Source: a virus
IMG/VR virus record: IMGVR_UViG_3300045988_147738
Coordinates: 102,432-166,431 of that record
Direction: 5' to 3' (one strand)
Length of the DNA: 64,000 bases
The notes under the pieces are model-generated. The model had not been told where the DNA came from, did no database searches, and worked only from the letters and a program-made list of their open reading frames with translations. Positions 12,310 through 15,467 of the stretch are shown in pieces. The translations under genes and the position numbers were made by a program. The first letter of the stretch is position 1. Every line of letters begins with the position of its first letter.

Positions 12310-12537
12310 AGAACACCTCTTAAAAATGGATTTTGGTCATGCTCAGAGAATATTGTGAATTCTTTAACAAAATAATTATTAATTACATTTACTGTATTAT
12401 TTGGAAATAGTTTATTTAATGCCTAATGAATTTCACGTGCTTCATCTACATTAACATCTTCACCTAAATGAGCAACAATAATATCACCAGGGTATAAATT
12501 AACTACATTAACTTTAATATTCTCACACATCGACATT
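12307..12537 (-). CDS. Small hypothetical protein; one in-frame TAG
   Basis: ATG at 12537 reads through a TAG; its TGA overlaps the rnhA ATG as ATGA. Confidence 0.35.
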
Positions 12538-12702
12538 AGCCCTTTCTGCATATTTCTCAATAAATGCCTTACGAGGACCGACTGCTTCACCCATTAAACT
12601 AATAAATGTGGTTGCTACTTGTTCCGCATCTTCCATAGTAATTTGTTTTAAAGTGCGAGTTTCTGGATTCATAACAGTTTCTTCCATTTCATGAACATCC
12701 AT
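12524..12702 (-). CDS. GyrB-like topoisomerase subunit B, C-terminal fragment (second exon or separate polypeptide)
   Basis: MDVHEMEETVMNPETRTLKQITMEDAEQVATTFISLMGEAVGPRKAFIEKYAERANVDV aligns with the extreme C-terminus of GyrB (…[15 protein letters not shown]…LMGDAVEPRRAFIEENA…DI). The RBS is poor. Confidence 0.55.
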
Positions 12703-12851
12703 TTCACCTACGTGTTATTCCAATATCACTATTGGCACTGACTATTTCTTCACTCAGGCTTACGTATTAACTGCCTTCATCGTGCTCACCTTTTTGAAAT
12801 GCGTATCAATAGCATTTCTACTCCCCAACAACGGGGATAGTCGATACAGGT

Positions 12852-13541
12852 TTAAACTATGATATTTTTCCAATTCTAATAAGTCCATACATTTGTAAAT
12901 GAGCCGTATGTTATTTTATCAGAATAATCTTTATAAACTTCTCTTATATTTTCACCATTTTTACGACGTAATCTAATTTGATATACATCATTTTCATCTA
13001 AACGAGAACGTCCATTTTTGCTTCCAATATTCGACGTATTATGTTTATGAAAATTCTTATTTTCTTCGGTAAATACTTCTGGCATAACATTTTTCCATGT
13101 TTCTCCATTCCATATTTTATGAAAACCTGATTCTCCAATTAAATTTTTATAATTTTCATAAACTTCATTTTTTCGCTCATGATTATTATATCGAGAACGA
13201 ATATCAATAACATCTTGTTTAGTTAATTTATGACTAGGATGACATTCTTCAGCATTAAATTGTCCTCCAGAAGTCATATTATATTGATTTGGATAAGTAT
13301 TATAATATTTAATATAATACTATTCTCGTTCATTTAATTCATTTATTTTACATTCTTCTAATATTTCAAATGTAAAATTTTCTATACCAAATTCTTGAAT
13401 GGCTTGATATAATCGTTTATTAGTTTCTCGCATCCAATTGTATTTAGTTTTATGTTCTTTAAAACGTTCTTCAATTTGGACACTCTATCCAATATAAGAA
13501 AAATTATTTATTTTATTCGTAATTTTATATATACCTATCAT
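12852..13541 (-). CDS. GIY-YIG homing endonuclease (I-TevI-like) inserted between the two GyrB-like parts; three in-frame TAG codons
   Basis: MIGIYKITNKINNFSYIG(TAG=Q)SVQIEERFKEH…GIENFTFEILEEC…; the C-terminal half equals track ORF 12876..13277. Confidence 0.65.
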
Positions 13542-13733
13542 TATAATTACCTCACTTTATTAGTAAGATAATATCATAGTTTCTTCCCACGAGATTATCT
13601 TCATTTATATTTTAAATTTATTCATTTCAGGATTTCTTGAAATGTCCAAATTCTGAAGACTGCCTCGTTAGCCTATTATAATTAATAGACCCCACTGATA
13701 AGTGGAAAAGTGAGTAGGGGCCAGACCTTCTTC

Positions 13734-15467
13734 TTACCCCTTCATACGGCCTAACTCAAATTGACGATTCATTGAGCTGCGAAATTCTGTTAATGCTCGT
13801 TCATCTTTTAAATACTTAATATTAGTGCCCCAAGTAGCCTTAAACAATGGAGGCACGGCAGTATAAATATAACCTTTTTCCAGAAGTTCAGGTGCAAATT
13901 TCCAAATAAATGTCAAAAACAAGACGCGAATATGACTACCATCAACATCAGCATCTGCGGTAATAATAATTTTGCCATAACGCAATTTAGATTCATCGAC
14001 AATAACTTTGCCATTTTGAACTTCCAATCCAAATGCATCAATCATAGCACTAATTTCATTATTACTTAATGCTTTATGTAAATCTGCTTTTAAGGTATTA
14101 ATAATCTTACCTTTTAAGGGTAAAACTGCCTGTGTATTACGATTTCGAGCATTTTTTGCGGGGCCTTCAGCTGATTTACCTTCAACGATGAATACTTCAC
14201 AATTTTTTCTATCTTTACTATTGGCATCACTTAGAATACCAGGAAGCATAGCACGCTTTTTTGTGTCAGCTTTACGGACTGTCTCTTTAGCTTTCTTTGC
14301 TTTTTCTCTTGCGGCTCGTGCCAATAGTGCTTTATCAACAATAGCTTTAGCATCTTTTTCATTTGACATTAGCCAAACTTTTAAATCTTTAGAAACAAGA
14401 CGTTGAACCATTGTTCGTGCTTCACTACTTGATAGAACATCTTTAGTTTGGCCTGAAAATACTGGGTCTGGCATAATGAATGAGAGAACTAGAGTTAATC
14501 CCTCTTTCAATTCTTCGCCAGTAATATTAGCATCTTTATCTTTTAAGAGCCCTTTTTCGCGAGCATAATCATTGATTGATGTTGTTAATGCTGTTCTAAA
14601 TCCAGTTAAATGAGTTCCGCCACTATTAGGAATAGAATTGGTATAGAGTTTATAAGTATCGCTATAAGTATCATTATATTGAAGCGCGATTTTTACACCA
14701 ATTCTATCTTCTGTATTTTCAGTATAAAATACAGAAGTAAGAGTAGTTTTTTTATTATTTAAATCTTTAACATAATCTAAAATACCATTTTTGGAACTAA
14801 TAGTTTCTTCTGGTTTATCTTCAAATTTTAATGTGAAGAGCATTCCAGGAGACAAATAAGCTAATTCTTGGATTTGCTTTTTTAGAACCTCATAATCAAG
14901 TTTAATACCTTCCTTGAAAATAGTATCATCAGGTGTAAATTGGACTAATGTTCCAGATAGAGCTTTGTCAATAACTCCTGTCCCAATGCTTAATGTCGGC
15001 TCTTCTTTATAATTAATTAATTTGCCTTGTTTAAATTCAGCTGTTGCTTTTTTACCATTTCTAACAGAAACAACTGTAAACTGTTTAGATAATGCATTAG
15101 TTGCTTTTGCACCGACACCATTCATACCACCAGATGTATTATATCCAGTTTTTCCATTACTATCGAATTTGGCACCGGTATGTAGTTTCGTATAAACATT
15201 TACTAGTGTTTCTGAACCATCTTTTGCCTTACCAAATGGGACACCACGACCATTATCAAAAATAGTAATTGCTCCATCTTTATTAACAGTAATATCACAT
15301 TCAGTACAATGGCCATTTAGATATTCATCGACAGCATTGGAAATAATTTCAAGGGTAATATGTCTTACGCCATCAGGCCCAACTGAACCAATATACATAC
15401 CTGGTCTAAGTCGGATAGCTTCAATGCCTTCAAGCGTTTTTATGTCTTTTACGCCATAATCAGACAT
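13734..15467 (-). CDS. Type IIA topoisomerase subunit B (GyrB/T4 gp39-like), N-terminal 577 aa
   Basis: GHKL ATPase, transducer and TOPRIM regions (…EGDSA-like VEGKSAEG, DADVDGSH). It ends …RQFELGRMKG* exactly where GyrB has …YKGLGEMNP. Confidence 0.8.
   Translation of the reverse strand: MSDYGVKDIKTLEGIEAIRLRPGMYIGSVGPDGVRHITLEIISNAVDEYLNGHCTECDITVNKDGAITIFDNGRGVPFGKAKDGSETLVNVYTKLHTGAKFDSNGKTGYNTSGGMNGVGAKATNALSKQFTVVSVRNGKKATAEFKQGKLINYKEEPTLSIGTGVIDKALSGTLVQFTPDDTIFKEGIKLDYEVLKKQIQELAYLSPGMLFTLKFEDKPEETISSKNGILDYVKDLNNKKTTLTSVFYTENTEDRIGVKIALQYNDTYSDTYKLYTNSIPNSGGTHLTGFRTALTTSINDYAREKGLLKDKDANITGEELKEGLTLVLSFIMPDPVFSGQTKDVLSSSEARTMVQRLVSKDLKVWLMSNEKDAKAIVDKALLARAAREKAKKAKETVRKADTKKRAMLPGILSDANSKDRKNCEVFIVEGKSAEGPAKNARNRNTQAVLPLKGKIINTLKADLHKALSNNEISAMIDAFGLEVQNGKVIVDESKLRYGKIIITADADVDGSHIRVLFLTFIWKFAPELLEKGYIYTAVPPLFKATWGTNIKYLKDERALTEFRSSMNRQFELGRMKG

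What the first reader, a model, noticed from the sequence alone, without database searches (positions are those of the whole stretch)
12524..15467. GyrB-like gene split by a GIY-YIG homing endonuclease (T4 39/mobA/60-like), with hints of a group I intron
The 577-aa N-terminal part ends …RQFELGRMKG* exactly at the conserved …YKGLGEMNP site of GyrB. The next topoisomerase sequence (MDVHEMEETVMNPE…GPRKAFIE…, the GyrB C-terminus) resumes 1 kb downstream after a GIY-YIG endonuclease gene. The intervening non-coding flanks (13556–13733 and 12720–12851) are unusually GC-rich and hairpin-rich (GGGG…CCCC, CCACT…AGTGG, CCCCGTTGTTGGGG). Joining exon …cgt aT to g|gat gtt would give LGRMDVHEMEE, which aligns with no gap to [11 protein letters not shown]. 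This is either a self-splicing intron with an endonuclease ORF or a T4-style post-translational two-piece topoisomerase.
Basis: partly seen in the sequence, partly recalled or inferred. Interest (0 to 1): 0.7.

Follow-up and report, generated by a model that had tools for sequence, protein, structure and literature searches.

The report
Mobile group I intron splitting phage gyrB
The phage's gyrase-B-like gene is interrupted by a 1,025-base self-splicing group I intron that carries its own homing endonuclease gene, an ordinary kind of phage mobile element that here sits in a phage reading the TAG stop codon as glutamine.

Summary
The split gene is real and is best explained by a mobile group I intron, not a T4-style two-piece topoisomerase. 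The intron runs from 13735 to 12711 on the minus strand (1,025 nt). The 5' splice site follows the U of AAGGGGU, which pairs as a U·G wobble with the guide GCCCCU. The 3' splice site follows a terminal G.

Splicing gives ...FELGRMKG|LGEMDVHEMEE..., restoring the KGLGEM motif. Three related phage contigs with 93% identical gyrB have no insert and encode exactly this sequence. Ten others carry the intron at the same site, one as a 287-nt version without the ORF. Lactococcus phage AM1 has the same intron, not annotated as one.

A 32-sequence alignment supports the helices P1 and P3 to P9 by covariation: 86% of cells paired against about 40% in shifted controls. The 3' half lines up with the T4 td intron. 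Rfam does not detect the window copy.

The endonuclease (229 aa, I-TevI-like GIY-YIG) lies in the P6 loop and has three in-frame TAG codons. TAG aligns with Gln in orthologues, and the window encodes a CUA suppressor tRNA.

Verdict: a new member of a known kind, of modest interest.

The parts
15522..15550 (-). Consensus sigma-70-type promoter (TTGACA, 17 nt, TG-TATAAT) upstream of gyrB
   Evidence: 12 of 12 hexamer matches. This is a consensus match only; function is inferred.
13736..15467 (-). gyrB-like exon 1 (codons 1-577 plus the first base of codon 578). Contains no in-frame TAG.
   Evidence: HATPase_c, DNA_gyraseB and Toprim domains; 2e-143 to E. coli GyrB.
12711..13735 (-). Group I intron, 1,025 nt, from AAGAAGAAGG... 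to ...AAUAACACG
13736..13741 (-). P1 5' strand (last six exon bases, AGGGGU). The U at 13736 is the 5' splice-site U of the U·G wobble.
   Evidence: It covaries with the guide: AGGGGU/GCCCCU against AAGGGU/GCCCUU and AGGCU/GGCCU.
13716..13727 (-). Internal guide sequence. GCCCCU (13721-13716) pairs with exon 1 to form P1. The preceding GGUCUG can pair weakly with exon 2 UAGGU to form P10.
   Evidence: P10 is inferred: 5 pairs, 3 of them wobble.
13709..13714 (-). P3 5' strand, CUCACU, directly after P1
   Evidence: helix 2: 89.5% paired, 5 of 6 pairs with compensatory changes. Also recovered by the minimum-free-energy fold.
13671..13705 (-). Two hairpins between the P3 5' strand and J3/4: CCACU-uauc-AGUGG (13705-13692) and GUCUAUUA-auua-UAAUAGGC (13690-13671)
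   Evidence: helices 3 and 4: 88% and 97% paired, with compensatory changes.
13589..13670 (-). J3/4 (UAA), P4 (ACGAGG/UCUCGU), and P5 with extensions P5a/P5b (GUCUUCA/UGAAGAU; CAUUUCA/UGAAAUG)
   Evidence: helices 6 and 7.
13570..13581 (-). P6 5' strand, AACUAUGAUAUU
   Evidence: It forms 12 perfect pairs with 12866-12855.
12852..13541 (-). Homing endonuclease gene: 229 codons plus TAA, I-TevI-like GIY-YIG, in the P6 loop. There is a GAGG ribosome-binding site at 13553-13550. Its last four codons overlap the P6 3' strand.
13485..13487 (-). In-frame TAG, endonuclease codon 19 (YIG-TAG-S)
   Evidence: It aligns with Gln (YIGQS) in orthologues.
13320..13322 (-). In-frame TAG, endonuclease codon 74, directly after catalytic Glu73
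12876..12878 (-). In-frame TAG, endonuclease codon 222 (WTY-TAG-NWKNIIV)
   Evidence: It aligns with Gln in L029 and L030.
12855..12866 (-). P6 3' strand, AAUAUCAUAGUU
12837..12842 (-). P7 5' strand, GACUAU, within the conserved element AAACCUGUAUCGACUAU
   Evidence: helix 9 (invariant); (identical in T4 td).
12796..12836 (-). P7.1 (CCCC-guuguu-GGGG), AGUAG, and P7.2 (GAAAUGC-uauugauac-GCAUUUC)
   Evidence: helices 10 and 11: 100% and 97% paired, every pair with compensatory changes..
12785..12790 (-). P3 3' strand, GGUGAG
12751..12784 (-). P8 (CAC...GUG with inner AGGC/GCCU)
   Evidence: helices 12 and 13.
12740..12745 (-). P7 3' strand, AUAGUC, within the conserved element AAGAAAUAGUCAG
12711..12735 (-). 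P9 (CCAAUA-guga-UAUUGG), a linker, and the terminal G at 12711
   Evidence: helix 14; 12 of 12 gyrB-site introns (window, L005-L032, AM1) end in G.
12523..12710 (-). gyrB-like exon 2: the last two bases of codon 578 (Leu), 61 further codons and the TGA stop
46959..47030 (-). Suppressor tRNA with anticodon CUA (reads TAG), needed to translate the intron's endonuclease
   Evidence: ARAGORN labels it Pyl/cta; Rfam tRNA, 55 bits.

Best explanation
A mobile group I intron related to the T4 td intron interrupts the phage's GyrB/ParE-like type II topoisomerase gene inside the codon after Gly577, in the conserved KGLGEM motif. The gene is transcribed as one pre-mRNA. The RNA folds so that the exon end AGGGGU pairs with the intron guide GCCCCU to form P1, with a U·G wobble at the splice site. 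A free guanosine bound at P7 attacks after U13736. The freed exon then attacks after the terminal G at 12711. The exons are ligated and the mRNA encodes a continuous 639-aa GyrB. Ribosomes reading unspliced RNA stop at a TAA that spans the splice site (exon U plus intron AA).

The P6 loop carries an I-TevI-like GIY-YIG homing endonuclease. By analogy with I-TevI, it would cut intronless gyrB alleles during co-infection, and repair would then copy the intron into them. Its three in-frame TAG codons are read as glutamine with the phage's CUA suppressor tRNA, so the enzyme can be made only where that tRNA is present.

Shown here: the exact boundaries, by comparison with empty alleles; the RNA pairings, by covariation; the endonuclease family; and TAG read as Gln. 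Inferred: catalysis, homing activity, and any role of TAG in timing.
For: Junction. Splicing at U13736 and G12711 gives a 639-aa protein in which Pfam DNA_gyraseB_C matches residues 568-629 in one stretch across the junction. E. coli GyrB aligns without a gap: 'rmkglgemdvhemeetvmnpe' against '[21 protein letters not shown]'.

Empty alleles. Related phage contigs L003, L004 and L036 (93% nucleotide identity in gyrB) have no insert and are 100% identical to the predicted protein over 107 aa around the junction.

Other carriers. Ten contigs carry an insert at the same position. All of them start after U and end in G. L032 carries a 287-nt version without the ORF.

P1. It covaries between near-identical alleles: AGGGGU/GCCCCU against AAGGGU/GCCCUU.

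Structure. On 32 family members, 86.4% of cells pair against 38-43% in slid controls. 60 of 87 pairs change on both sides. The covariation score is 0.404 against 0.07-0.13 in the slid controls and 0.146 in the shuffles, and 0 of 500 shuffles reach it. An unconstrained minimum-free-energy fold of the ORF-excised window intron recovers P1, P3, P4, P5, P6, P7.1, P7.2, P8 and P9, with z = -6.8. The ORF-less L032 gives z = -4.8.

Curated model. Rfam RF00028 scores family member L068 at 60 bits, above the gathering score of 50, and ORF-less L032 at 23 bits, E = 7e-4.

T4 td. The 3' half is collinear with the td intron: CGACUAUCC..GGGGAGUAG..GAAA.G..AGAnAUAGUC..hairpin..G.

Endonuclease. TIGR01453 'group I intron endonuclease' scores 81 bits against a cut-off of 56. 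The I-TevI catalytic domain matches at 2e-5, with Arg26, His30, Glu73 and Asn89 aligned to I-TevI Arg27, His31, Glu75 and Asn90. The ORF is intact at 229 aa in all 10 intron-bearing alleles when TAG is read through. TAG aligns with Gln at 6 of 9 positions.

Code and cultured relative. The window encodes a CUA suppressor tRNA. Lactococcus phage AM1 has the homologous intron at the identical site.
Against: There is no RNA evidence: no RT-PCR and no transcriptome reads. Rfam finds no group I match in the window itself even at E <= 10. Only 1 of 7 ORF-less family members tested reaches E <= 0.01. P7 is invariant, partly because the family was collected with a pattern that includes it, so P7 has no covariation support. 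The hairpins lie after the P3 5' strand rather than before it as in td and Twort, so the architecture is not a textbook IA2. Exon 2 has an in-frame ATG preceded by AGGUGA, so separate translation of the C-terminal 59 aa cannot be excluded from sequence alone.
Confidence: 0.9

Rival explanations
1. A T4 39/mobA/60-style split gene. A free-standing GIY-YIG endonuclease gene was inserted into gyrB. The 577-aa and 59-aa pieces are translated separately and assemble after translation.
For: Both pieces are open reading frames under the standard code. The small piece starts with ATG at 12702, preceded by AGGUGA. Public annotation of Lactococcus phage AM1 lists three separate CDSs.
Against: The ATG and the AGGUGA are simply the conserved codons for Gly-Glu-Met of KGLGEM. 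AM1 (LGEL) and L038 (LGEQ) have no ATG there. The annotated AM1 start lies inside the ribozyme's P9. The 194 nt and 141 nt flanking the endonuclease gene are conserved structured RNA with compensatory changes, and they persist when the endonuclease gene is deleted in L032, L065 and L072. A free-standing endonuclease does not predict this. A split would also cut through the KGLGEM motif, leaving KG on one piece and LGEM on the other.
Confidence: 0.04
2. A decayed intron. The ribozyme no longer splices efficiently, the phage gyrB is a pseudogene or a truncated protein, and the host's topoisomerases supply the function.
For: Rfam's curated model does not detect it. There is no experimental evidence of splicing. 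The hairpins are placed unusually relative to P3.
Against: Both exons are intact and conserved with mostly silent differences from relatives. Every core helix is maintained by compensatory changes in alleles whose exons differ by 20-45% in protein sequence. The endonuclease ORF is intact in all 10 alleles. The partner GyrA-like gene is intact downstream.
Confidence: 0.05

Closest known systems
T4 td group I intron (subgroup IA2) with I-TevI
   Same: The 3' half has the same order of elements and long identical stretches: CGACUAUCC, GGGGAGUAG, AUAGUC, a P9 hairpin and a terminal G. P7.1 and P7.2 lie between P7 and P3'. The endonuclease ORF is in the P6 loop. The endonuclease has an I-TevI-type GIY-YIG catalytic domain with the same catalytic residues. 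The host gene belongs to phage DNA metabolism.
   Different: The host gene is gyrB, not td. There is no hairpin between P1 and P3; instead two hairpins follow the P3 5' strand. The endonuclease's C-terminal half is a tandem repeat of about 50 aa with no Pfam match, not I-TevI's zinc finger and helix-turn-helix. The endonuclease contains TAG sense codons.
Lactococcus phage AM1 and relatives (949 group, Audreyjarvisvirus), locus gp175-gp174-gp173
   Same: A homologous intron lies at the identical codon (SKG|LGEL), with the same conserved cores, compensatory changes in P1, P3, the hairpin after P3 and P7.2, and an orthologous endonuclease ending ...NWKSIIV. ORF-less versions exist in L065 and L072.
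   Different: AM1 uses the standard code: its endonuclease has no TAG. Its P5 and P8 are shorter. The record annotates three CDSs and no intron. Its GyrB is only distantly related to the window's: AM1 is not among the 30 best phage-record matches to the window's GyrB, which top out at 43% identity.
T4 gene 39 / mobA / gene 60 split topoisomerase
   Same: A phage type II topoisomerase ATPase-subunit gene is interrupted by a mobile endonuclease gene.
   Different: In T4 the pieces are separate genes with a free-standing endonuclease, and gene 60 adds a 50-nt translational bypass (established knowledge; bioRxiv 10.1101/2022.08.31.505936). Here the insert is a ribozyme with splice-site hallmarks, and the coding sequence is restored at the RNA level.
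Recoded group I intron endonuclease in Agate phages (Borges et al., bioRxiv 10.1101/2021.08.26.457843)
   Same: An intron-encoded endonuclease inside an early gene of a stop-codon-recoded gut phage carries in-frame reassigned stop codons. That paper proposes that this delays endonuclease synthesis.
   Different: There the codon is TGA read as Trp; here it is TAG read as Gln. Here the neighbouring GyrA-like replication gene also contains an in-frame TAG, so a strict early/late division is not evident.

Membership tests
Group I self-splicing intron | The last exon base is U, paired with G of an internal guide sequence (P1 with a U·G wobble) | tested here: met
   Exon AGGGGU (13741-13736) pairs with GCCCCU (13721-13716). 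All gyrB-site alleles keep the U·G. Positions -5 and -2 covary with the guide.
Group I self-splicing intron | The intron ends in G (omega G) | tested here: met
   G at 12711. All 12 gyrB-site introns compared (window, L005-L032, AM1) end in G.
Group I self-splicing intron | Conserved core: the P4-P6 domain and the P3-P7-P8-P9 domain, with a P3/P7 pseudoknot | tested here: met
   P3, P4, P5, P6, P8 and P9 are supported by compensatory changes, and P7 is invariant. 86.4% of cells pair against about 40% in controls. The fold agrees.
Group I self-splicing intron | Removal restores an uninterrupted, conserved reading frame | tested here: met
   Intronless alleles L003, L004 and L036 are identical to the predicted ligated product. 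Pfam and GyrB alignments are continuous across the junction. 11 metagenome contigs carry the exact ligated-exon sequence uninterrupted.
Group I self-splicing intron | A score at or above the gathering threshold of the curated model Rfam RF00028 | tested here: inconclusive
   Window: no match at E <= 10, with the ORF in P6 breaking the model. ORF-less orthologue L032: 23.4 bits, E = 7e-4. Family member L068: 60 bits, at or above the threshold of 50. Six other ORF-less members were not detected.
Group I self-splicing intron | Guanosine-dependent self-splicing | not testable with these tools
   This needs in vitro transcription and splicing, or RNA sequencing.
Subgroup IA2 (T4 td, Twort orf142 type) | Extra hairpins P7.1 and P7.2 between P7 and the 3' strand of P3 | tested here: met
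   P7.1 at 12836-12823 and P7.2 at 12818-12796. Every pair shows compensatory changes. They are collinear with td.
Subgroup IA2 (T4 td, Twort orf142 type) | A P2 hairpin between P1 and P3 | tested here: not met
   The P3 5' strand (13714-13709) follows P1 after one base. The two hairpins lie between it and J3/4. Rfam aligns them as P2/P2.1 but then leaves its own P3 poorly paired. A pairing called P3.1 is listed as an optional group I element (PMC3873408). I did not check its position or whether this architecture has been described.
GIY-YIG homing endonuclease, I-TevI-like (NCBIfam TIGR01453) | A GIY...YIG motif, the catalytic Arg, Glu and Asn, and a score above the family cut-off | tested here: met
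   GIY at residues 3-5 and YIG at 16-18. Arg26, Glu73 and Asn89 align with I-TevI Arg27, Glu75 and Asn90. TIGR01453 scores 81.3 bits against 56.05. This holds only if the three TAG codons are read as sense.
GIY-YIG homing endonuclease, I-TevI-like (NCBIfam TIGR01453) | Cleaves the intronless allele near the insertion site and drives homing | not testable with these tools
   The evidence is indirect: presence or absence of the intron among 93%-identical genomes, and a cluster of silent differences at -13 to +2 around the site.
T4 39/mobA/60-type split topoisomerase | A free-standing endonuclease gene, and a downstream fragment with its own conserved translation start | tested here: not met
   The endonuclease lies in the P6 loop of a ribozyme. 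The ATG of the fragment is absent in AM1 and L038.
Stop-codon-recoded phage (TAG read as Gln, code 15) | A suppressor tRNA(CUA), and in-frame TAG in conserved genes at positions where orthologues have Gln | tested here: met
   tRNA with anticodon CUA at 46959-47030. Reading TAG as sense lengthens many minus-strand genes, for example the GyrA-like gene to 819 codons. In endonuclease orthologues TAG aligns with Gln at 6 of 9 positions. The public gene calls for this scaffold also read through TAG.

The most novel reading that the evidence does not exclude
The intron's endonuclease is tied to the phage's altered genetic code. Codon 19 is TAG, so no active enzyme can be made in a cell or phage that lacks the CUA suppressor tRNA. 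This would restrict homing to the part of the infection when suppression is active, and it would confine this intron lineage to TAG-recoded phages. The code would then act as a barrier or gate for a selfish element. The turnover between TAG and CAG or CAA among endonuclease orthologues shows the element has evolved inside recoded lineages, while the Lactococcus-phage copy has no TAG. A second, smaller point: this intron family, with hairpins after P3, is largely invisible to Rfam RF00028, so split genes like this one are routinely mis-annotated.
Probability: 0.25. Interest if true: 0.5.

Novelty: new member of a known kind. Interest (0 to 1): 0.33.

Why it matters
It turns three apparently separate genes into one: a 577-aa 'topoisomerase', an endonuclease broken by stop codons, and a 59-aa fragment. 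The same mis-annotation exists in RefSeq records of cultured Lactococcus phages. It shows that a widespread family of td-like phage introns, seen in 56 viral contigs from one pattern search, mostly escapes the curated Rfam model. It also gives a clean natural series at one site: the intron with its endonuclease, the intron without it, and the empty site, among phages whose gyrB is 75-95% identical in protein sequence. That series suits the study of the homing cycle. Finally, it adds a TAG-to-Gln example to the earlier TGA observation that intron endonucleases in recoded phages carry reassigned stop codons. None of this changes how group I introns or homing are understood.

Tried and rejected
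Rfam scans. The whole window at gathering thresholds gave only tRNAs. Region 12400-13900 at E <= 10 gave no group I match, only two chance hits.

Rejected: it needs a 5' splice site after 'cgtaU' and an intron ending in U, not G; it deletes KGLGE; and it disagrees with the intronless alleles.

My first P3 assignments. I tried UAGGCU/AGCCUG and UAUUAA/UUAAUA, using the strand just before J3/4 as in td. I dropped them because AM1 cannot form them, and because the strand after P1 covaries with P3' in 32 sequences.

An intein or a T4 gene-60-type translational bypass. Not pursued. The insert is 1,025 nt, has its own ORF in another frame context, and has RNA splice hallmarks.

blastn of the ORF-less intron against phage records. 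It found only two weak Enterococcus phage matches.

tblastn of the spliced GyrB against phage records. The best match has 43% identity, so there is no close cultured relative.

A second copy of the intron family in the window. None was found.

A look-up of the spliced protein in assemblies, to look for cDNA.

Literature search for a described gyrB or topoisomerase group I intron in 949-group phages. Nothing relevant was found.

Inferring the TAG amino acid from the GyrA-like gene. This was not decisive. The endonuclease orthologue alignment was.

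
Full report
**What is there.** All features are on the minus strand.
- A 577-aa ORF (15467..13734) has the GyrB ATPase, transducer and Toprim domains. It ends ...FELGRMKG followed by TAA.
- About 1 kb downstream, a 59-aa ORF (12702..12523) is the GyrB C-terminal tail.
- Between them lies a GIY-YIG gene. Under the standard code it is broken by three in-frame TAG codons. 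Read through, it is 229 codons (13541..12852).
- The window comes from a 199.5-kb scaffold of an ENA metagenome assembly.

**The junction.**
- The exon end AGGGGU (13741-13736) is complementary to GCCCCU 14 nt into the insert. The final U faces a G, which is the P1 hallmark of group I introns.
- The insert ends ...AACACG. Joining after U13736 and after G12711 gives GGG U|UA GGU GAA AUG, that is ...RMKG|LGEMDVHEMEE....
- The 639-aa product matches Pfam DNA_gyraseB_C in one stretch across the junction. It aligns without a gap to E. coli GyrB [21 protein letters not shown].

**Comparative proof of the boundaries.** A scan of viral contigs with the spliced protein returned 42 related loci, mostly from phage contigs of 110-200 kb.
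- L003, L004 and L036 have uninterrupted genes. Their gyrB is 92-93% identical to the window's at the nucleotide level. They are 100% identical to the predicted product over the 107 residues around the junction, with no insert.
- Ten loci carry an insert at exactly this position: 1,023-1,044 nt in nine of them and 287 nt with no ORF in L032. Every one begins after U and ends with G.
- P1 covaries between near-identical alleles: exon AGGGGU with guide GCCCCU in the window and L006, and AAGGGU with GCCCUU in L005 and others. The more distant L047 has AGGCU with GGCCU.
- Intron-bearing alleles read AARGGGU|UAGG at the site. The closely related empty alleles read AAAGGUC|UUGG. Both encode the same amino acids, and the silent differences cluster at -13 to +2.
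- The exact ligated-exon sequence also occurs uninterrupted in 11 metagenome contigs. Their GyrB is 36-75% identical to the window's. These could be natural target sites or products of intron loss; I cannot tell which.
- Lactococcus phage AM1 (949 group) has the same arrangement at the same codon, annotated as three CDSs. Its 71-aa 'DNA topoisomerase' CDS starts inside the intron.

**RNA structure.** A core pattern (AAACCUGUAUCGACUAU ... CUAUUGAUACG) found 56 further viral contigs carrying this intron family in various genes. Sixteen of these copies have no ORF.
- I aligned 32 ORF-excised members, 19 of them at the gyrB site (A1), and scored a structure written from the window sequence.
- 86.4% of cells form standard pairs, against 38-43% when partners are slid by 1-3 columns. 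60 of 87 pairs change on both sides.
- The covariation score is 0.404, against 0.07-0.13 for the slid controls and 0.146 for the shuffles. None of 500 shuffles reaches it.
- Supported helices are P1, P3 (89.5% paired, 5 of 6 pairs compensatory), two hairpins after P3, P4, P5, P6, P7.1, P7.2, P8 and P9. P7 (GACUAU/AUAGUC) is invariant.
- An unconstrained fold of the window intron with the ORF replaced by GAAA recovers all of these except the pseudoknotted P7, with z = -6.8. The ORF-less L032 gives z = -4.8.
- The 3' half is collinear with the T4 td intron. I recalled that sequence from memory and verified it as 100% identical to T4; the alignment is. Shared elements are CGACUAUCC, the P7.1 hairpin, GGGGAGUAG, P7.2, GAAA-G before P3', P8, AGAnAUAGUC, P9 and the terminal G.
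- The P6 stem is 12 perfect pairs (13581-13570 with 12866-12855). It encloses the endonuclease ORF, as in td.
- One departure from td and Twort: the strand that pairs with P3' lies directly after P1, and the two small hairpins lie between it and J3/4 (UAA). Rfam aligns these hairpins as P2/P2.1 in L068 but then cannot pair its own P3. Covariation favours my assignment. A pairing called P3.1 is listed as an optional group I element (PMC3873408). I did not establish whether this architecture has been described.

**Curated-model test.**
- Rfam RF00028 finds nothing in the window, even at E <= 10. The 703-nt P6 loop breaks the model.
- It scores the ORF-less orthologue L032 at 23.4 bits, E = 7e-4.
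- It scores family member L068 at 60 bits, above the gathering score of 50.
- It misses six other ORF-less members.
- On this criterion alone, membership is therefore inconclusive for the window copy. It is met by the other defining features.

**The endonuclease and the genetic code.** With TAG read as an amino acid, the protein has these properties:
- It matches TIGR01453 'group I intron endonuclease' (81 bits against a cut-off of 56) and PHROG 7168.
- It matches the I-TevI catalytic domain (1MK0, 2e-5), with the catalytic Arg, His, Glu and Asn aligned.
- Its C-terminal half is a tandem repeat (...IWNGETWKNV / ...VWTY-TAG-NWKNI) with no Pfam match.
- Its last four codons overlap the P6 3' strand.

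The evidence on the code is as follows.
- Orthologues in the ten intron-bearing alleles are all intact at 229 aa and carry 1-5 TAGs each. At 6 of 9 TAG positions another orthologue has Gln, so TAG is read as Gln.
- The window encodes a tRNA with anticodon CUA.
- Many other minus-strand genes contain in-frame TAG. The GyrA-like gene becomes 819 codons when TAG is read through.
- The gyrB exons contain no TAG. The AM1 endonuclease has none either.
- Borges et al. already reported a recoded (TGA) group I intron endonuclease in an early gene of Agate phages and proposed delayed synthesis. Here the GyrA-like gene also needs suppression, so a timing role is only a possibility.

**Mechanism.**
- Shown: the boundaries, the pairings, the endonuclease family and the code.
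- Inferred from established group I chemistry and the I-TevI paradigm: the two-step guanosine-initiated transesterification; termination of translation on unspliced RNA at the TAA that spans the splice site; cleavage of empty alleles; and repair-mediated homing with co-conversion of flanking exon bases.
- The series of full intron, ORF-less intron and empty site among closely related genomes fits the usual gain, decay and loss cycle of homing elements.

**Rivals.**
- A T4-like two-piece protein is unlikely. The ATG and AGGUGA ahead of the 59-aa piece are the codons for Gly-Glu-Met of the motif and are absent in AM1 and L038. The flanks are conserved structured RNA that persists after the endonuclease gene is lost.
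- A dead intron is unlikely, given the compensatory maintenance of every helix and the intact exons and endonuclease.
- Neither rival can be excluded without RNA or protein data.

**Verdict.** This is a real mobile group I intron of the td-like kind, at a gyrB site not annotated in public records. It lies in an uncultured TAG-recoded gut phage of about 200 kb. It is a new member of a known kind, with modest interest.

Noticed in passing
window 46959-47030 (-) and genome-wide: The phage encodes a suppressor tRNA(CUA) and uses TAG as a sense codon in many minus-strand genes. Under the standard code these genes appear truncated or split.
   Followed up: partly
window 9483-11942 (-): The GyrA/ParC-like gene directly downstream is listed as a 571-aa ORF under the standard code. 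It reads through a TAG (...VGTNTS-TAG-GLSIRALVN...) to about 800 aa. The public gene call for the scaffold is 808 aa.
   Followed up: partly
window 42717-42900 (-): Rfam calls a tRNA spanning 184 nt. ARAGORN with introns allowed predicts a tRNA (called Thr-UGU) with a 112-nt insert in the anticodon loop. The insert contains a sequence resembling a T-arm plus acceptor end (GAGTTCAAATCTCATTTCCGCCTCCA). It is too short for a typical group I intron, and its nature is unexplained.
   Followed up: partly
window 42448-58788 (-): A cluster of 24-25 tRNA genes covers most amino acids but has no ordinary Gln, Lys or Trp tRNA.
   Followed up: no
window 15522-15550 (-): A perfect extended sigma-70 consensus promoter (TTGACA, 17 nt, TG-TATAAT) lies 55 nt upstream of the gyrB start. 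This suggests transcription by host RNA polymerase.
   Followed up: no
L067 2145-2369; L038, L034 and L043 gyrB: Relatives' gyrB genes carry further inserts at other positions. L067 has a second group I intron scoring 98.7 bits with Rfam just upstream of the family intron. L038 and L034 have an extra 1.0-1.2 kb and L043 about 285 nt.
   Followed up: no
L063 (11.6 kb): There are four Rfam group I matches above the gathering score within 5.3 kb, in addition to the family member that Rfam misses. This is an intron-dense phage region.
   Followed up: no
L001 (Lactococcus phage AM1, NC_049854) 4020-4235: The RefSeq CDS 'DNA topoisomerase' (71 aa) starts at an ATG inside the intron's P9 region. The real exon 2 starts at 4042 (UAGGAGAAUUAGAUG...). 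L065, and L072 (whose contig has the same length, 128,179 bp, as Lactococcus phage LW81), carry a copy of this intron in which only a short remnant of the endonuclease ORF is left.
   Followed up: partly
L103-L113: Eleven metagenome contigs have uninterrupted gyrB genes containing the exact 26-nt ligated-exon sequence CGTATGAARGGGTTAGGNGARATGGA, although their proteins are only 36-75% identical to the window's. They may be homing sites or footprints of intron loss.
   Followed up: partly
window 12852-13260 (-), endonuclease residues 95-229: The C-terminal half of the endonuclease is a tandem repeat of about 50 aa (KLTKQDVIDIR...FHKIWNGETWKNV / RLDENDVYQIR...FTNVWTYQNWKNI) with no Pfam match. 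It is presumably the DNA-binding module.
   Followed up: no
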